Source: a virus. Taken from it: DNA of 44,137 nucleotides. Made by a program: the position numbers and the translations under genes. The stretch lies in IMG/VR virus record IMGVR_UViG_3300010370_000002. One strand, 5' to 3'. Below the pieces are notes generated by a model. That model saw nothing but the letters and a program-made list of their open reading frames with translations, was not told the DNA's origin and ran no database searches. Below, piece after piece: positions 20,701-25,396 of this stretch; position 1 is the first letter of the stretch, and every line of letters starts with the position of its first letter.

Positions 20701-20949
20701 ATGAATTTATTTGAAATAATGGGAAATGTGGTAAAAAACCACAACGAAAATGCTGATAACATAACAAAAAGATATGTTGAAGCTCATCAAGTTAATATCA
20801 TTGAAAAGATTGATATTATTAGCGTTGCTTATCCAGAAGTGGCTAGGCACTTAGAGCGCTTAAATAATTCTAATAACGAGCAAGATCAAAACACAGCGCA
20901 AGATATTGCGAATTGTATTTGTGAATTACTTAACAATAAGGGGGAGTAA
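20701..20949 (+). CDS. Hypothetical protein
   Basis: 82 aa, AAAGGAG SD upstream. Confidence 0.55.
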   Translation: MNLFEIMGNVVKNHNENADNITKRYVEAHQVNIIEKIDIISVAYPEVARHLERLNNSNNEQDQNTAQDIANCICELLNNKGE

Positions 20950-21234
20950 ATGTATTTTAAAAATTATAAATCCGGAAAACTTTATCTTTTTAATTTTTAT
21001 AATAATAAAAGAGAAGACCTTTTAGAAGAATTAAAAAAGGTAAACAAAGAATTGTTTGAGGTGCAGGCTTTTTTAAAAAGTTATGAGGATGTTGAATCCT
21101 CAATTAAAAACGATAAAGAAGTTTTTAACGAATTACAAAAAAAAATGTACCTCGAACAACTTGAAAATTTACAGAGTCATCACGATTTTGTGAATTTTCA
21201 AAAAACAATCAAAGAATTATTAACATTAAAATAA
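20950..21234 (+). CDS. Hypothetical protein (coiled coil)
   Basis: 94 aa, GGGGGAG SD upstream. Confidence 0.55.
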   Translation: MYFKNYKSGKLYLFNFYNNKREDLLEELKKVNKELFEVQAFLKSYEDVESSIKNDKEVFNELQKKMYLEQLENLQSHHDFVNFQKTIKELLTLK

Positions 21235-21243
21235 ATAAAAACC

Positions 21244-21459
21244 ATGACAAAATATATTAAAAAAAACAATGACGGAACTTACGATAAAACAATAATCAAT
21301 TTTTTTATCAAAGAAAAATCAATTGCCAAAACAGTGTTTAAAATGAACCATGACCACGGCGTAATAATTTCAAGGGCTGAAATAATCAACCTTTTGAAAA
21401 ATACTGATAACGGACATTTAATCAAAACAAGAACAAATAAGAAAAAAAATGACCAATAA
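21244..21459 (+). CDS. Hypothetical protein
   Basis: 71-aa ORF. Confidence 0.5.
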   Translation: MTKYIKKNNDGTYDKTIINFFIKEKSIAKTVFKMNHDHGVIISRAEIINLLKNTDNGHLIKTRTNKKKNDQ

Positions 21460-21736
21460 CTTAAAAAAAATAATAAAAGCTTATTTAACGGTTATTTTTA
21501 TAGCCTTAGCGAGTTATTGCTGGCAAGGATATAAAAATAACTGCATGTCAAATAATAACGAGCTAATAGTTTTAGAAACTCAATTATTTGAGGCTAAAAG
21601 TATAATCGAGGATTTAAAAAGCCAGTTAGCTAATAACGAGCTGGCTTTAAAACAAGCGCACAATCAAATAATGAGCTTTAAAAGCAAATGTAGAGATTGT
21701 CAATTTTTAACTCAAAACCAAAACTGGGGGGAATAA
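21449..21736 (+). CDS. Hypothetical membrane-anchored coiled-coil protein
   Basis: 95 aa, N-terminal hydrophobic segment AYLTVIFIALASYCW. Confidence 0.5.
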   Translation: MTNNLKKIIKAYLTVIFIALASYCWQGYKNNCMSNNNELIVLETQLFEAKSIIEDLKSQLANNELALKQAHNQIMSFKSKCRDCQFLTQNQNWGE

Positions 21737-22170
21737 TGACTAAAATTTATAACACAAAACAAGAATTAATGTTTGAAGATGAGAGTTTGTCCTTAAAGGA
21801 GCTCGTAGAAAAGAATAAAAGCAATTTAAAATATGCGGATTTAAGGTTTGCGGATTTAGGGTTTGCGGATTTAAGGTTTGCGAATTTAAACGAGGCAAAT
21901 TTAGAGGGTGCGGATTTAGAGGGTGCGGATTTAAGGTTTGCAAATTTAGAGGGTGCGGATTTAGAGGGTGCGGATTTAAGGGATGCAGATTTAAGGGATG
22001 CGAGTTTAAGGGGTGCGGATTTATGGGGTGCAAATTTAAAAAAGGCGAATTTAAGTGGTGCGTGTTTATGGGGTGCAAATTTAAACTATGCCAGATACTC
22101 CTCACAAACAGTATATAGTTGTGGTAAAACTGTGGGAGAATTAGTAAAAAACGGAGGGAATAATGACTAA
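21736..22170 (+). CDS. Pentapeptide-repeat protein 1 (about 17 A(D/N)LXX repeats)
   Basis: I prefer the ATG at 21736 after the GGGGGGA SD. Sequence MTKIYNTKQELMF...YADLRFADLGFADLRFANLNEANLEGADLEGADL... Confidence 0.85.
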   Translation: MTKIYNTKQELMFEDESLSLKELVEKNKSNLKYADLRFADLGFADLRFANLNEANLEGADLEGADLRFANLEGADLEGADLRDADLRDASLRGADLWGANLKKANLSGACLWGANLNYARYSSQTVYSCGKTVGELVKNGGNND

Positions 22171-22790
22171 AATTTATAACACAAATAACAAATTAATGTT
22201 TCAAGATGATAATTTGTCTTTAAAGGAGCTAGTAGAAAAGAATAAAAGCAATTTAAATTATGCGAATTTAACCGGAGCAAATTTAACTGGTGCGGATTTA
22301 AATTATGCGAATTTAACCGGAGCAAATTTAACTGGTGCGGATTTAAAGGGTGCGGATTTAACTGGTGCGGATTTAAGGTTTGCGAATTTAACCGGAGCGA
22401 ATTTAAGGTTTGCGAATTTAAGGGGAGCGGATTTAAGTAGAGCGAATTTATTTGAGGCGGATTTAAGGTTTGCGAATTTATTTGAGGCGGATTTAAGGTT
22501 TGCGAATTTAACCGGAGCGAATTTAAGGTTTGCGAATTTAAGTGGAGCGAATTTATTTGAGGCGAATTTAAGGTTTGCGAATTTAAGGTTTGCGAATTTA
22601 ACCGGAGCGAATTTAATGGGAGCGGATTTATTTGAGGCGAATTTAAGTGGAGCGAATTTAATGGGAGCGGATTTAATGGGAGCGGATTTAAGTAGAGCGA
22701 ATTTAAGGGACTCGGATTTAAGGGAAGCGAGGTTATGGTGTGCAAATTTAGAGGGTGCAAATTTAGAGGATGCGGATTTAGAGGGAAGGC
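21833..22790. repeat. Coding tandem repeat with 15-bp periodicity (gcNgatttaNNNNNN), underlying the pentapeptide repeats
   Basis: Read directly, for example gcggatttaaggttt gcgaatttaaccgga repeated many times. Confidence 0.85.
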
Positions 22791-22846
22791 ATGTTAGGTA
22801 CTCCTCACAATTAGTAAAAAACGGAGGGATTAATGAACAAAAATGA
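22163..22846 (+). CDS. Pentapeptide-repeat protein 2 (about 35 A(D/N)LXX repeats), paralogue of the upstream gene
   Basis: 227 aa. The N-terminus MTKIYNTNNKLMFQDDNLSLKELVEKNKSNL is near-identical to protein 1. The start overlaps the upstream stop, with the SD inside the upstream codons. Confidence 0.85.
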   Translation: MTKIYNTNNKLMFQDDNLSLKELVEKNKSNLNYANLTGANLTGADLNYANLTGANLTGADLKGADLTGADLRFANLTGANLRFANLRGADLSRANLFEADLRFANLFEADLRFANLTGANLRFANLSGANLFEANLRFANLRFANLTGANLMGADLFEANLSGANLMGADLMGADLSRANLRDSDLREARLWCANLEGANLEDADLEGRHVRYSSQLVKNGGINEQK

Positions 22847-23003
22847 GAAATTATCGTTATTTTTACTTTGGTTGCTAGTTTTTTCAATCTTATTGGTCGC
22901 AACACAATTCAATTTTGTTAATAAATTACTTTTCGGGGCTTATAGCACGATAAGTTTATTATATATTGCGTTAAAAATAAAAGACTTGACAAAAAGAAAG
23001 TGA
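22833..23003 (+). CDS. Small two-TM membrane protein (56 aa, below the track cutoff), translationally coupled to pentapeptide-repeat protein 2
   Basis: Hand translation: MNKNEKLSLFLLWLLVFSILLVATQFNFVNKLLFGAYSTISLLYIALKIKDLTKRK. Preceded by the same AACGGAGGGATTAATG context as 22163. Confidence 0.5.
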   Translation: MNKNEKLSLFLLWLLVFSILLVATQFNFVNKLLFGAYSTISLLYIALKIKDLTKRK

Positions 23004-23013
23004 TGATTAAAAA
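22986..23013 (+). promoter_or_regulatory. Possible sigma70-type promoter: TTGACA - 16 bp - TAAAAA
   Basis: TTGACA at 22986-22991, weak -10 near 23008. Located in the last codons of the 56-aa ORF, as with the promoters at 27106 and 28946. Confidence 0.35.
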
Positions 23014-23039
23014 TAAATCAAACTTTTTTCATAGGGTTT

Positions 23040-23282
23040 TTTAGTTAAGTTGGGCAAAGGGGGAGTAGTTAACCCCCTTCGCTTTCTTATAGTAAGCTTG
23101 TTTAATAGACCGTTTTACAAGTTTACTATTGGCAAGCGAAAGTTGAGCGCTATTTAATCATTGAATCAATAGACAAAGATGAGTATGCTTGCCAGCACAT
23201 AAACATTTCGGGGGGGGATTGTTTATTATTTATGGTGAGGCTTGCCCCCCGCAACCTCACCGCCACGTTAGGGGAAGCAGAA
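23040..23282 (+). ncRNA. Structured, GC-enriched non-coding leader or small RNA upstream of the replication module
   Basis: Helices seen by hand: AAGGGGG/CCCCCTT (23057-63/23073-79); 13-bp inverted repeat ATAGTAAGCTTGT/ACAAGTTTACTAT (23089-101/23117-129, one mismatch); TGGCAAGC/GCTTGCCA (23130-37/23187-94); G8 (23210-17); GGTGAGG/CCTCACC (23234-40/23255-61) with C6 in its loop. Confidence 0.4.
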
Positions 23283-23483
23283 ATGCAACAAACACAGGAA
23301 ACAGTGATAAGCGAGATTAAGCGACAACAAAATAGACAAATTGCTAGAACTCTTGACGACTTGGCAGATTTAAAATTGCCAAAGCTTGTTGAAGAAAGAA
23401 TTAAGCAGGGATTCTATGACTTTGCGGATAATCTTATAAAATTAATACAGGACACTCAAAATGACAAATCAAACACAAAATAA
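23283..23483 (+). CDS. Hypothetical protein (66 aa)
   Basis: The track ORF starts at 23232 inside the structured region. I prefer the ATG at 23283 after GGGGAAG. Confidence 0.5.
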   Translation: MQQTQETVISEIKRQQNRQIARTLDDLADLKLPKLVEERIKQGFYDFADNLIKLIQDTQNDKSNTK

Positions 23484-24096
23484 ATCTTTTATCTTACATA
23501 AGGATAGTCTCTCGGTTTTGAATAAACTTTCTGACGAAGAAGCTGGGAAACTTTTTAAAGCAATTTTCAACTATCAATCTCAAAATATTTTACCCACAAA
23601 TAATTTAATTTCTATCATTTTTGAGCCCTTTTTAAATCAGTTTAAAAGAGACGAAGAAAAATATCAAAATGTTGTTGAGAGGAATAAAATCAACATTGCA
23701 AAAAGGTGGAATAAACCTAATACCAAAAATACCACTGGTAAAATTGGTATACCAAAAGATACCAAAAATACCGATAGTGATAGTAAGAATAAGAGTGATA
23801 GTGATAGTAAGAGTGATAGTAAGAATGATTTACCAATCTTTATAAATAAAGATTTATTTAATTCTTTTGTTGAGATGCGAGTAAAGATAAAAAAACCACT
23901 TACAGAAAAAGCAAAAGAATTATTGCTAAAAGATTTAACAAAGTTTGAAAATTTAAAAATTGGTAATGCTAACATAGCGCTTGAAAATTCTATTAAGAAT
24001 AGCTGGCAGGGAGTTTTTGAACCAAAACAAAATAACTTTACAAACAATGATACACCTAGTTTTTTAAGTTCATTTCAACACTTGAGGAATAAATAA
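23461..24096 (+). CDS. Replication initiation / helicase-loading protein (DnaD-like replisome organiser)
   Basis: 211 aa. N-terminal LSDEEAGKLFKAIFNY motif, a DSDSK low-complexity linker, and C-terminal FVEMRVKIKKPLTEKAKELLLKDL...SWQGVF resembling a DnaD-type domain. Directly upstream of dnaB. Confidence 0.5.
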   Translation: MTNQTQNKSFILHKDSLSVLNKLSDEEAGKLFKAIFNYQSQNILPTNNLISIIFEPFLNQFKRDEEKYQNVVERNKINIAKRWNKPNTKNTTGKIGIPKDTKNTDSDSKNKSDSDSKSDSKNDLPIFINKDLFNSFVEMRVKIKKPLTEKAKELLLKDLTKFENLKIGNANIALENSIKNSWQGVFEPKQNNFTNNDTPSFLSSFQHLRNK

Positions 24097-24097
24097 T

Positions 24098-25396
24098 ATG
24101 GAACAAGAAAATTTTAATCAAGAGCTAGAAGAAGCTATAATTGGCAATATTCTAGCAAATAACTTTAATTTGTTAAAATCACCAAATTTAGAAGCTAAGC
24201 ATTTTTATTTTAATGATTACAAATTAATATTTGAAGAAATCATTAAAAGAATTGGTGCGGGTGAAGTTGTTGATTTTAGAATTATTACAACATTTCTAAA
24301 AAACAATAGCATTAAAACAAGCATTGTTAAAGATTTAATGAACGCTACTGGTGGAATTTGTGATATGGAGTTTTATTCAAACGAAATTATAAGATTATGG
24401 CAAATAAGAGAGCTAAAGAATATTTTAAATGTTATCATAAACGAAAAAATAAGCGATTTTGATGCTATTAAAACAAAATTAGAGGGAGAGATAGCTGATA
24501 TATCAATAAACATGTCTAAACAGCCTAAAAAGATTGATAAAATTATTGATGATGTTTTATCAGTTCACCAAAAAGAATTGGTATTCACTGGCTTTGAAAA
24601 ATTAGATATTCTTACTGGTGGCTTTGAATTAGGAAATTTAGTAATAGTCGGGGGAAGACCTTCAAGCGGTAAAACTACATTTTGTCTTAACTTTGCTAAA
24701 AATGTTTCTCTAAATCATGGTGTTATGTTTTTTTCAATGGAAGTTTCCGACAAAAGCTTAGCGAGAAAGTTTTTAAATGAAACAACTGGTGTAAGTGCCT
24801 ATCGATTAAAAATTGGGGTAATATCCGAAGGCGACTCAATGGCTTTAGAAAATAACCGCCACACTTGGAAAAATTATAATTTAATAATCGACCAAGAAAA
24901 CGGTTTAACTATTTTGGCTATTAGAAGCAAGATTAAACGAGCAATGCTTAAATCTGATATTAAGATGGTTTGTATTGACTATTTACAACTTATCGCAAGC
25001 TCAAGTAAAGAATTTTCTAGAGAGCAACAAATATCAAGAATTGCGGAAGGCTTAAAGAAGATAGCAAAAGATTTTAATATTGTTGTTGTTGCATTATCGC
25101 AACTATCACGGGCTGGAGACGCAAGAGAAAATAAAAGACCAATCCTAAGCGATTTAAGAGACTCGGGAGCTATAGAACAAAATGCCGATATAGTTATGTT
25201 TACACACAGGGACGAGTATTTTTTAGAGCGTGAAAAAGTTCCTGAACACTCAAAGCATTATGCGGAATGGCTTGAATGTTATAACAATGCAAAAGGCTTA
25301 GCTGATATAATTGTTTCTAAAAATCGTGAAGGCGAATGCGGTGATATTAAATTTAGATTTAATGGTAAACAAAGTCAATTTTCGGAGGTAAAATGA
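24098..25396 (+). CDS. dnaB: Replicative DNA helicase DnaB
   Basis: 432 aa. Walker A GGRPSSGKTTF, Walker B-like MVCIDYLQLI, SQLSRAGD, LRDSGAIEQNADIV. Confidence 0.9.
   Translation: MEQENFNQELEEAIIGNILANNFNLLKSPNLEAKHFYFNDYKLIFEEIIKRIGAGEVVDFRIITTFLKNNSIKTSIVKDLMNATGGICDMEFYSNEIIRLWQIRELKNILNVIINEKISDFDAIKTKLEGEIADISINMSKQPKKIDKIIDDVLSVHQKELVFTGFEKLDILTGGFELGNLVIVGGRPSSGKTTFCLNFAKNVSLNHGVMFFSMEVSDKSLARKFLNETTGVSAYRLKIGVISEGDSMALENNRHTWKNYNLIIDQENGLTILAIRSKIKRAMLKSDIKMVCIDYLQLIASSSKEFSREQQISRIAEGLKKIAKDFNIVVVALSQLSRAGDARENKRPILSDLRDSGAIEQNADIVMFTHRDEYFLEREKVPEHSKHYAEWLECYNNAKGLADIIVSKNREGECGDIKFRFNGKQSQFSEVK

What the first reader, a model, noticed from the sequence alone, without database searches (positions are those of the whole stretch)
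21736..23003. Tandem pentapeptide-repeat proteins plus a coupled two-TM peptide: candidate DNA-mimic or counter-defence cassette
Seen: two adjacent paralogous genes (144 and 227 aa) consist almost entirely of A(D/N)LXX pentapeptides, about 17 and about 35 repeats.
- They share near-identical N-termini (MTKIYNT..LMF.D..LSLKELVEKNKSNL) and C-terminal LVKNGG(N/I)N tails.
- Each tail's codons (AACGGAGGGA) form the SD for the next gene, so three ORFs are translationally chained.
- The third ORF is an unannotated 56-aa, two-TM protein (22833-23003).

Established: pentapeptide-repeat proteins fold into right-handed quadrilateral beta-helices. The best-studied members (Qnr, MfpA, AlbG) mimic B-form DNA and act on DNA gyrase. 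Protein 2 is Qnr-sized.

Inference: in a phage early region such proteins could modulate host topoisomerase. They could also act as DNA-mimic decoys against restriction or other DNA-sensing defences. The 15-bp in-frame periodicity makes repeat number easy to change by slippage or recombination.
Basis: partly seen in the sequence, partly recalled or inferred. Interest (0 to 1): 0.7.

Follow-up and report, generated by a model that had tools for sequence, protein, structure and literature searches.

The report
Hypervariable phage pentapeptide-repeat gene cassettes
Two adjacent early phage genes encode plain beta-helix (pentapeptide-repeat) proteins that are optional, movable cassettes whose number, length and surface differ between otherwise near-identical phages, which looks like an arms race, but their target is unknown and they are not Qnr-type gyrase protectors.

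Summary
PRP1 (21736-22170, 144 aa) has 18 perfectly in-register A(D/N)LXX repeats and PRP2 (22163-22846, 227 aa) has 36. A 56-aa membrane peptide follows, and each gene's tail carries the Shine-Dalgarno site for the next gene. AlphaFold2 gives confident uninterrupted beta-helices (pLDDT 92.6 and 86.7) with a beta-hairpin/helix N-cap and a disordered tail.

The "three-gene cassette" reading fails. In close relatives whose flanks are 97-99.8% identical, the membrane peptide is chained directly to the upstream gene g95 with no PRP. The same site holds 0, 1 or 2 PRPs, and a PRP also occurs at a second junction (g82|g94). Each cassette ends in a copy of the local SD-stop junction.

Twelve distinct complete alleles (18-36 repeats, net charge 0 to -15) are block mosaics. 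The buried Leu is invariant and the buried Ala is 97% conserved. Surface positions are highly variable.

Qnr and MfpA membership fails on curated HMM cut-offs, on the missing loops and on the missing dimerisation helix.

Best reading (about 0.4): dispensable early cytoplasmic binder or decoy proteins that evolve in conflict with a variable host factor, acting as host-range or counter-defence accessories. Function is untested. PRP genes in phage early operons are already known (P22-like phages L and ST64T, orf232).

The parts
21449..21736 (+). g95: 95-aa protein with an N-terminal hydrophobic anchor, a coiled coil and a C-terminal CxxC motif. It is the conserved backbone gene whose SD-stop junction is the insertion site (site B).
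   Evidence: It is 100% identical in L001 and L017. Homologues in L004, L005 and L009 are followed by peptides of about 55 aa with two hydrophobic segments, without PRPs. In L017 and L039 it is chained directly to TM56.
21720..21739 (+). Junction copy 1: AAAACTGGGGGGAATA|ATGA (g95 tail, SD, stop and start).
   Evidence: The same string joins g95 to TM56 in the empty site of L017.
21736..22170 (+). PRP1: 144 aa. N-cap residues 1-30, 18 pentapeptides (residues 31-120; nt 21826-22095), then the tail YSSQTVYSCGKTVGELVKNGGNND.
   Evidence: AF2 pLDDT is 86.7. The same allele occurs in L038, and in L001 and L033 with one C-terminal residue changed.
22148..22166 (+). Junction copy 2: AAAACGGAGGGAATA|ATGA (PRP1 tail and PRP2 start).
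22163..22846 (+). PRP2: 227 aa. N-cap residues 1-30, 36 pentapeptides (residues 31-210; nt 22253-22792), then a disordered tail VRYSSQLVKNGGINEQK.
   Evidence: AF2 pLDDT is 92.6 with an uninterrupted helix. Its first three quarters or so are replaced in L001 while the flanks stay about 99% identical. Its last 85 aa were recovered independently in L041.
22818..22836 (+). Junction copy 3: AAAACGGAGGGATTA|ATGA (PRP2 tail and TM56 start).
22833..23003 (+). TM56: 56-aa basic peptide (pI 10.1) with two hydrophobic segments. It is the last gene of the operon and a backbone gene, not PRP-specific.
   Evidence: The exact sequence is on at least 20 contigs. It follows g95 directly in L017 and L039.
23057..23079 (+). 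GC-rich hairpin AAGGGGG-N9-CCCCCTT followed by a T-rich stretch. It is a candidate terminator for the operon.
   Evidence: It is conserved in L001. The consensus scanner did not call it because the loop is 9 nt.
20935..20949 (+). Site A, empty in this window: the g82|g94 junction AATAAGGGGGAGTAA|ATG. Relatives L017 and L037 carry a PRP cassette here that ends in a copy of the same string.

Best explanation
The window carries two members of a lineage of minimal pentapeptide-repeat proteins that, on these scans, was found only on phage-like contigs. Each has a beta-hairpin plus helix N-cap, an uninterrupted right-handed quadrilateral beta-helix (4.5 coils in PRP1, 9 in PRP2) and a short disordered tail. 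Neither has a signal peptide or a hydrophobic segment, so both are cytoplasmic. They are made from the far end of the first rightward (early) operon by translational coupling.

They are not a fixed module with the membrane peptide. They are dispensable gene cassettes that sit in SD-stop-start junctions of the operon: site B between g95 and TM56, and site A between g82 and g94. Each cassette ends in a copy of the junction it occupies, so gain or loss is precise and keeps the coupling.

Across a natural population of near-identical phages, three things vary: cassette number, repeat number, and the solvent-exposed residues. They change by block-wise recombination between alleles and between the two paralogues. 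The phage's own Sak-like annealase and RecE-like exonuclease probably assist this, with the conserved N-cap and tail serving as homology arms. The buried Leu and Ala that build the fold stay fixed.

Inferred function: rigid rod-shaped binder or decoy proteins that engage a variable host factor early in infection. The factor could be a defence or other nucleic-acid-handling protein, or a host sensor that the phage must escape. That would make them host-range or counter-defence accessories rather than housekeeping genes.

Shown here: fold, coupling, accessory status, insertion sites, mosaic hypervariability with a conserved core. Inferred: early expression, the recombination engine, binding to a host factor, and counter-defence.
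For: Fold
- PF00805 at E = 2e-47 and 2e-76.
- AF2 pLDDT of 92.6 and 86.7, with strands every 5 residues.
- Foldseek top hits are PRP solenoids and HetL.

Context
- The plus-strand block 17.2-34.6 kb holds an O-like initiator, DnaB, a Sak-like SSAP, a RecE-like exonuclease, a dUTPase and a methyltransferase. Structural genes lie on the minus strand.

Accessory and mobile
- Site B holds 0 PRPs in L017 and L039.
- It holds 1 in L030, L035, L037, L044 and L048, and apparently in L047, where the gene is cut at the contig end.
- It holds 2 in the window, L001, L033 and L036.
- Site A is filled in L017 and L037.
- Flanks are 97-99.8% identical.
- The junction is duplicated at every cassette end.

Hypervariability
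- Between the window and L001, PRP1 is about 100% identical. PRP2 diverges from its second codon, with indels of 15, 45 and 90 nt, then returns to about 98% identity.
- The L030 allele keeps PRP1's first 135 nt and its tail, but has a different centre.
- There are 12 distinct complete alleles of 18-36 repeats. Painting with 30-mers shows patchwork sharing, including PRP1-PRP2 exchange and swapped tails.

Constraint
- In 88 distinct 15-nt units, Leu is 100% conserved and Ala 97% conserved, the latter with synonymous GCG/GCA/GCC variation.
- Surface positions carry 3.4, 2.9 and 2.0 bits of entropy.
- No allele has a stop codon or a frameshift.

Real alleles
- Identical alleles come from independent samples and assemblers.

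Outside hints
- In the P22-like phage ST64T, the PRP gene orf232 lies in the early left operon between ral (anti-restriction) and gene 17. It differs by one 15-bp repeat between the more than 99.9% identical phages L and ST64T.
- Two Staphylococcus phages bred for wider host range both acquired mutations in their PRP gene (PMC8065394).
Against: - No experiment or homology links these proteins to any defence or anti-defence system. PADLOC gives no hit and all matching PHROGs are of unknown function.
- Hypervariability in a 15-nt tandem array could largely reflect high recombination and slippage rates rather than selection.
- Some alleles could be metagenome-assembly chimeras. Many contigs break inside the array.
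- The proteins lack the C-terminal domains that most phage PRPs carry, so they might be truncated remnants.
- Several loci were fetched by exact identity of g95 or TM56, which biases the flanks towards identity.
Confidence: 0.4

Rival explanations
1. Qnr/MfpA-type topoisomerase modulators. The beta-helix mimics a DNA segment, binds host gyrase (GyrA or GyrB) and adjusts supercoiling for phage replication.
For: The fold class matches that of MfpA, Qnr and AlbG. PRP2 is about the length of a Qnr monomer, the proteins are mildly acidic, and the cassette lies just upstream of the replication module. Small phage-encoded gyrase inhibitors do exist, such as Igy and Gip (PMC10886550).
Against: - The curated HMM cut-offs are missed by a wide margin: Qnr 72.9 against 240 bits, MfpA 67.1 against 360.
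- There are no loops and no C-terminal dimerisation helix. The review read describes both as typical of this class.
- Gyrase is a conserved target. These proteins range from 4.5 to 9 coils and from net charge 0 to -15, are absent in some near-identical phages, and are hypervariable on the surface.
Confidence: 0.1
2. Neutral or selfish repeat cargo. These would be truncated remnants of longer phage PRPs (N-cap, repeats and a C-terminal domain). They would persist and vary only because 15-nt arrays recombine easily and always stay in frame.
For: - The cassettes are dispensable (0-2 copies).
- Relatives with the same N-cap (L018, L020, L028, P0116) carry an extra Cys-rich C-terminal domain of about 65 aa that is missing here.
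- The PRP tails look weakly like the start of that domain.
- Unit-wise slippage cannot break the reading frame.
Against: - Buried positions are invariant while surface positions vary. Ala codons vary synonymously, and there are no stop codons in 88 distinct units even though many codons are one step from a stop.
- The N-cap and tail are kept at about 100% identity.
- The SD-coupled arrangement is preserved at both sites.
- Both proteins have confident folded models.
Confidence: 0.2
3. Superinfection exclusion or phage-versus-phage competition. The PRPs, possibly together with the membrane proteins g95 and TM56, would block incoming DNA or the proteins of competing phages.
For: - The cassette is chained between two small membrane proteins.
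- In ST64T the PRP gene sits beside gene 17, which the record labels a superinfection exclusion protein. The phage L paper says the early left operon of P22 carries sieB, which L lacks.
- Variable accessory genes are typical of inter-phage conflict.
Against: The PRPs have no effector domain and no membrane segment. The link with g95 and TM56 is not conserved: the site-A cassette lies three genes away, and g95-TM56 exists without PRPs. No integrase or repressor was found among the ORFs scanned, so there is no sign of long-term prophage expression.
Confidence: 0.1
4. HetL-like regulatory binders for host takeover. The beta-helix would sequester a host peptide or regulator rather than a defence protein.
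For: The best natural structural match is HetL (3du1, E = 2.9e-14). By sequence the proteins resemble cyanobacterial-type "ideal" PRPs more than Qnr or MfpA. That HetL acts through protein or peptide binding rests on my own knowledge.
Against: The HetL equivalog cut-off is not met (137 against 260 bits). A takeover factor aimed at a conserved regulator should not be dispensable or hypervariable.
Confidence: 0.1

Closest known systems
orf232 of the P22-like Salmonella phages L and ST64T (early left operon pentapeptide-repeat gene, function unknown)
   Same: Both are phage-encoded PRPs in an early accessory operon. In ST64T the gene lies between ral and gene 17. Repeat number differs by a 15-bp unit between genomes that are more than 99.9% identical. 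The window phage also has a P22-type head-closure (gp10-like) protein.
   Different: orf232 has a helical ..ILEEHKVWI.. N-cap and a C-terminal domain of about 85 aa. The window proteins have a beta-hairpin/helix N-cap and only a 17-24-aa tail. Here there are two tandem copies, two insertion sites and extensive mosaic alleles, not a single-unit indel.
Qnr, MfpA, AlbG and McbG (pentapeptide-repeat factors that protect gyrase from topoisomerase poisons)
   Same: Right-handed quadrilateral beta-helix built from A(D/N)LXX repeats. PRP2 is similar in length, and the proteins are mildly acidic.
   Different: Family HMM cut-offs are not met. There are no loops A or B and no C-terminal dimerisation helix. 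The genes are dispensable, of variable length and hypervariable. Sequence identity in the structural alignments is 21-26% to MfpA and Qnr and 12-15% to AlbG.
Cyanobacterial "ideal" PRPs (HetL/All3740, Np275/276, Alr5209) and the synthetic beta1 solenoids derived from them
   Same: These are the closest matches by sequence and by structure. They share long uninterrupted arrays with Leu and Ala at the buried positions.
   Different: Those are cellular or designed proteins, not phage cassettes. The HetL equivalog cut-off is not met. The Alr5209 model's cut-off is passed by PRP2 only by summing three repeat stretches against a 113-position model. There is no evidence of a shared function.
DNA-mimic anti-restriction proteins (T7 Ocr, ArdA)
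   Same: Early phage or mobile-element proteins proposed to act as decoys for DNA-binding defence enzymes.
   Different: The fold is different. The charge density here is low: about -0.02 to -0.05 per residue in the window proteins, and reaching 0 in one allele. The PRP DNA mimics McbG and QnrB did not inhibit BREX in the one published test found (PMC7261183).
Other phage PRPs (Rheinheimera Barba gp043, Twort-like and P100-like myovirus PRPs, and PRPs with a DUF5758 C-terminal domain)
   Same: PRPs occur in 470 of 50,697 phage records, all with generic names, and among many BFVD models. They often sit among small early genes.
   Different: Most carry an extra C-terminal domain such as DUF5758 or the ..AGC..T..EW.. 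domain. The LKELVEKNK-type N-cap lineage of this window turned up on only 14 metagenome loci, 1 IMG/VR contig and 1 MAG contig.

Membership tests
Pentapeptide-repeat protein family (Pfam PF00805) | Tandem A(D/N)LXX pentapeptides above the Pfam gathering score. | tested here: met
   158.6 and 251.1 bits against a cut-off of 20.2. There are 18 and 36 in-register repeats.
Pentapeptide-repeat protein family (Pfam PF00805) | Right-handed quadrilateral beta-helix fold. | tested here: met
   AF2 pLDDT is 92.6 and 86.7, with a strand every 5 residues. Foldseek matches PRP structures at E = 1e-14. These are predictions, not solved structures.
Qnr family (NCBIfam NF033086) | Score above the curated equivalog cut-off. 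| tested here: not met
   PRP2 scores 72.9 bits and PRP1 31.7 bits against a cut-off of 240.
Qnr family | Loops that interrupt the beta-helix (loops A and B) and a C-terminal helix that mediates dimerisation. | tested here: not met
   The register is unbroken over residues 31-210. The model has no loops, and residues 211-227 are disordered. The features themselves are as described in PMC10886550 and from my own knowledge of the QnrB1 structures.
Qnr and MfpA | Binds gyrase and protects it from quinolones, or inhibits supercoiling. | not testable with these tools
   Needs supercoiling and MIC assays with the unknown host's gyrase.
MfpA (NCBIfam NF000349) | Score above the curated equivalog cut-off. 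| tested here: not met
   67.1 and 38 bits against a cut-off of 360.
DNA-mimic decoys (Ocr and ArdA type) | A dense, conserved array of surface carboxylates that imitates the DNA backbone. | tested here: inconclusive
   Net charge is -7 in 144 aa and -4 in 227 aa. Alleles range from 0 to -15.
Known anti-phage defence systems (PADLOC-DB 2.0) | Match to any defence-protein model. | tested here: not met
   PRP1, PRP2 and TM56 have no hits. g95 has only a chance-level PglZ hit, E = 0.0047.
Phage PRPs with a C-terminal domain (DUF5758 type, orf232/Barba type, L020 type) | A globular C-terminal domain of 65-120 aa after the repeats. | tested here: not met
   The tails are only 24 and 17 aa. Pfam shows no DUF5758. 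Alignment of the tails to the C-terminal domains is ambiguous.
Diversity-generating retroelement targets | A nearby reverse transcriptase with a template/variable repeat pair. | tested here: not met
   No RT domain was found in about 28 window ORFs scanned with Pfam or PHROGs. The variation consists of block mosaics, not point changes. The window ORFs left unscanned are nearly all under 165 aa.

The most novel reading that the evidence does not exclude
The cassettes form a natural, recombination-driven combinatorial library of beta-helix binders. Conserved N-cap and tail sequences would act as homology arms. The 15-nt repeat modules would be shuffled between alleles and paralogues, perhaps by the phage's own Sak/RecE-like system. 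Whole cassettes would hop between SD-stop-start junctions. Together this would give a phage population a rapidly changing repertoire of counter-defence decoys, a phage analogue of variable repeat-receptor systems and a new anti-defence protein class built on the pentapeptide fold.
Probability: 0.15. Interest if true: 0.75.

Novelty: new variant of a known kind. Interest (0 to 1): 0.5.

Why it matters
Pentapeptide-repeat genes occur in about 1% of sequenced phages (470 of 50,697 records), often in early accessory operons, and I found no assigned function for any of them. This locus offers a clean natural experiment. Near-identical phage backbones carry 0, 1 or 2 cassettes at defined junctions, with many mosaic alleles that keep the fold but change the surface.

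If the variation tracks host-strain or defence content, it would identify a new family of host-range or counter-defence factors. It would also show how tandem 15-nt modules plus conserved ends can generate binder diversity. If it does not, the locus is still a well-documented case of precise gain and loss of repeat-gene cassettes at translational-coupling junctions. It is also a warning against annotating phage PRPs as "Qnr-like resistance genes".

Tried and rejected
- Megablast of 21000-24500 against INPHARED found no match.
- The whole-protein homology search was swamped by generic PRPs, and the window's own proteins were not on record.
- An exact tail pattern and an N-cap profile in IMG/VR each returned only L001.
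- The genome-contig scan returned a single contig, from a MAG labelled only "Proteobacteria bacterium". The host therefore stays unknown, and no cellular source of this PRP lineage was seen.
- PADLOC gave nothing. Rfam gave only the tRNA.
- The promoter and terminator consensus scans were at chance level: 45 promoter-like sites against 37.5 expected, and 5 terminator-like sites against 3.7.
- I considered a DGR or a shufflon as the engine of diversification. No reverse transcriptase, invertase or integrase turned up in the ORFs scanned, and the variation is block-wise.
- I considered that the tails are truncated C-terminal domains of the L020-type PRPs. The alignment is suggestive (A-x4-T-[IV]..; GK-x-[VL]GEL) but not significant.
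- Literature searches for a characterised phage PRP function found none.
- I could not compute surface electrostatics because model coordinates are not exposed.
Full report
**1. Observation**

The ORF map and the sequence confirm three plus-strand ORFs at the stated coordinates.
- PRP1 is 21736-22170 (144 aa). After a 30-residue N-terminus it is a perfectly in-register array of 18 L-x-x-A-(D/N) units.
- PRP2 is 22163-22846 (227 aa) and has 36 such units.
- TM56 is a 56-aa ORF at 22833-23003.
- Pfam PF00805 scores E = 2e-47 for PRP1 and 2e-76 for PRP2. TRF reports arrays of period 15, 30, 45 and 60 nt.
- The first 93 nt of the two genes, which encode the N-cap, are 84/93 nt identical. Both end in LVKNGG.
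- The tails carry GGAGGG 5-6 nt before the next ATG, and the genes overlap by 8 and 14 nt.
- The upstream gene g95 (21449-21736) is chained the same way, so the chain has four genes. Similar junctions occur elsewhere in the operon, for example at g82|g94.
- TM56 has one strong and one weaker hydrophobic segment and a basic tail. Its exact sequence is a called gene on at least 20 public contigs.

**2. Genome context**

The window looks like a whole phage genome of about 44 kb at about 31% G+C.
- The minus strand carries the terminase subunits, portal, a head protein, a P22-gp10-like head-closure protein and a tail-fibre-like gene. The nearest cultured phages infect Xanthomonas, Rhodoferax and Vibrio, at about 33% protein identity.
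- The plus-strand block from 17.2 to 34.6 kb carries small unknown genes, then a DUF6291/O-like initiator, DnaB, a Sak-like annealase, a RecE-like exonuclease, a dUTPase and a DNA methyltransferase.
- The PRPs lie at the far end of the first tightly packed plus-strand operon.
- Downstream come a conserved GC-rich hairpin (23057-23079) and a structured 230-nt spacer.
- No integrase, reverse transcriptase or invertase was found in the ORFs scanned.
- The host is unknown. One related contig is binned in a MAG labelled only "Proteobacteria bacterium".

**3. Structure**

AlphaFold2 predicts the same architecture for both proteins (PRP2 pLDDT 92.6, pTM 0.85; PRP1 pLDDT 86.7):
- an N-cap made of a beta-hairpin (residues 2-15) and a helix (20-26);
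- an uninterrupted beta-helix;
- a low-confidence tail.

There are no protruding loops and no C-terminal helix. The top Foldseek and sequence matches in the PDB are the synthetic "beta1" solenoids and cyanobacterial PRPs such as HetL. MfpA, Qnr and AlbG rank lower, at 12-26% identity. BFVD holds many uncharacterised phage PRPs.

**4. Relatives, the decisive evidence**

Loci were fetched in four ways:
- through the neighbouring initiator protein;
- through an N-cap profile in metagenomes;
- through the same profile in genomes;
- through exact look-ups of g95 and TM56.

They yielded a population of phages whose flanks are 97-99.8% identical to the window. At the g95|TM56 junction (site B) they differ as follows.

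| PRPs at site B | Loci |
|---|---|
| 0 | L017, L039 |
| 1 | L030, L035, L037, L044, L048; apparently also L047, where the gene is cut at the contig end |
| 2 | window, L001, L033, L036 |

- In L017, g95 runs straight into TM56 through the string ...AAAACTGGGGGGAATA|ATGAAC. The same string precedes PRP1 in the window. Each PRP ends in a near-copy of it, AAAACGGAGGGA(A/T)TA|ATG.
- L017 and L037 carry a PRP with the same N-cap at a second place, between g82 and g94. Those two genes are adjacent in the window (20949|20950). That cassette ends in a copy of the g82 junction, AATAAGGGGGAGTAA|ATG.
- The PRPs are therefore dispensable cassettes bounded by duplicated SD-stop junctions.
- TM56 belongs to the backbone with g95. 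More distant relatives (L004, L005, L009) also keep a g95 homologue followed by peptides of about 55 aa with two hydrophobic segments, and no PRP.

**5. Hypervariability**

- Between the window and L001, PRP1 is essentially identical. PRP2 diverges right after its start codon: the N-cap is 64/93 nt identical and the body carries indels of 15, 45 and 90 nt. It returns to about 98% identity for its last 200 nt or so.
- The single PRP of L030 keeps PRP1's first 135 nt and its tail, but the 17 repeats between them are different.
- I found 12 distinct complete alleles: 144-227 aa, 18-36 repeats, net charge 0 to -15.
- Painting each allele with 30-mers from the others shows patchwork sharing. This includes blocks exchanged between PRP1-type and PRP2-type genes, and swapped tails in L036.
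- In the 88 distinct 15-nt units, the buried Leu is invariant. The buried Ala is 97% conserved and its codons vary synonymously (GCG 45, GCA 35, GCC 5).
- The three exposed positions carry 3.4, 2.9 and 2.0 bits of entropy. No unit contains a stop codon.
- Identical alleles were recovered from independent samples and assemblers. Many contigs also break inside the array, however, so some chimeras cannot be excluded.

**6. Comparison with known families**

- The curated NCBIfam cut-offs for Qnr (72.9 against 240 bits), MfpA (67.1 against 360) and HetL (137 against 260) are not met.
- The Alr5209 model's cut-off is passed by PRP2 only by summing three repeat stretches.
- PADLOC gives nothing, and all matching PHROGs are of unknown function.
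- Many phage PRPs carry C-terminal domains: DUF5758, the domain of ST64T orf232 and Barba gp043, or a Cys-rich domain in L018, L020, L028 and P0116, which share the window's N-cap. The window proteins have only short tails.
- PRPs occur in 470 of 50,697 phage records, always with generic names.

The closest documented analogue is orf232 of the P22-like phages L and ST64T. It is a PRP in the early left operon, lying between ral and gene 17 in ST64T. Its only difference between those two more than 99.9% identical genomes is one 15-bp repeat.

Two further hints from the literature:
- Two Staphylococcus myoviruses bred for wider host range both mutated their PRP gene (PMC8065394).
- The PRP DNA mimics McbG and QnrB did not inhibit BREX (PMC7261183).

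I found no paper that assigns a function to a phage PRP.

**7. Interpretation**

Shown:
- the fold (predicted);
- the translational coupling;
- accessory status;
- two insertion sites with junction duplication;
- mosaic, length-variable alleles with an invariant core.

Inferred:
- The proteins are made early, in the cytoplasm.
- They act as rigid binders or decoys against a variable host factor, or are themselves under pressure to escape host sensing.
- The phage's Sak/RecE-like system, using the conserved ends as homology arms, drives the shuffling. Relaxed recombination by Rad52-like phage recombinases is the subject of PMC3945230, which appeared in the list and which I did not read.

A conserved target such as gyrase fits poorly with genes that are dispensable, of variable length and hypervariable. 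Without loops or a dimerisation helix, the proteins also lack the features of the Qnr class. Generic DNA mimicry is weakly supported because the charge is modest and not conserved.

A neutral or selfish reading remains a serious rival, since 15-nt arrays recombine easily and stay in frame. The contrast between core and surface, and the preserved ends, argue for selection on a folded, expressed protein.

**8. Verdict**

- The "PRP plus coupled TM peptide cassette" and "Qnr-like" parts of the interpretation are not supported.
- "Counter-defence or host-interaction accessory" is plausible and now testable, but unproven.
- I rate this a new variant of a known, uncharacterised kind (phage early-operon PRPs), with moderate interest of 0.5.

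Noticed in passing
window 23004-23290: The spacer between TM56 and the replication genes folds strongly as RNA (MFE -83.9 kcal/mol, z = -3.46, no shuffle as stable). It has GC-rich hairpins, for example GGTGAGG..CCTCACC near 23236-23263. The stretch from TM56 through g83 that contains it is about 99% identical in L017 and L030. It has no Rfam match. It could be an origin or a regulatory RNA.
   Followed up: partly
L031 6415-7563 (the same contig as L017, JACCDO010117569.1): A close relative encodes a 382-aa protein with about 22 tandem CTF(K/D)TGxx octapeptide repeats, a different solenoid-like repeat gene. It sits in the replication module and is absent from the window. In the stretch of that relative that was fetched, no match to the window's DnaB was found.
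   Followed up: no
window 21449-21736 and 22833-23003; L004, L005 and L009: g95 (membrane anchor, coiled coil and CxxC) and a peptide of about 55 aa with two hydrophobic segments form a conserved pair at the end of the early operon, even in distant relatives. Their function is unknown. Superinfection exclusion or a lysis-timing role are guesses.
   Followed up: partly
window 23461-24096: The DUF6291/O-like initiator is itself mosaic among relatives (47-96% identity). In several of them the adjacent DnaB stays 83-99.8% identical, and in others it is replaced by a helicase only about 36% identical.
   Followed up: no
window 29031-29762 and 30324-31334: A Sak-like single-strand annealing protein and a RecE-like exonuclease. 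They are a plausible engine for the short-homology recombination seen in the PRP cassettes.
   Followed up: no
L018, L020, L028 and L015 (P0116): PRPs with the same N-cap carry a conserved Cys-rich C-terminal domain of about 65 aa (..LLRCxLLNxxSFYFMAGCFSGTEQELKEKV..) that has no Pfam match. Repeat numbers range from about 10 to about 35. This is an uncharacterised domain family.
   Followed up: partly
window 21740-22105, 22167-22760 and 22303-22905 (minus strand): Long minus-strand ORFs of 121, 197 and 200 aa across the arrays. They are reading-frame by-products of the 15-nt repeats, not genes.
   Followed up: yes
window 27659-27734: tRNA-Leu(TAA) in the early block. It could help with host assignment.
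   Followed up: no
L051 1329-2306 (Rheinheimera phage Barba20S gp041): This gene, annotated "pentapeptide", actually consists of NTG(N/D)x repeats (Pfam Pentapeptide_2 type). It lies about 700 nt upstream of a true PF00805 PRP, so this is another phage with paired repeat genes in an early-like region.
   Followed up: no
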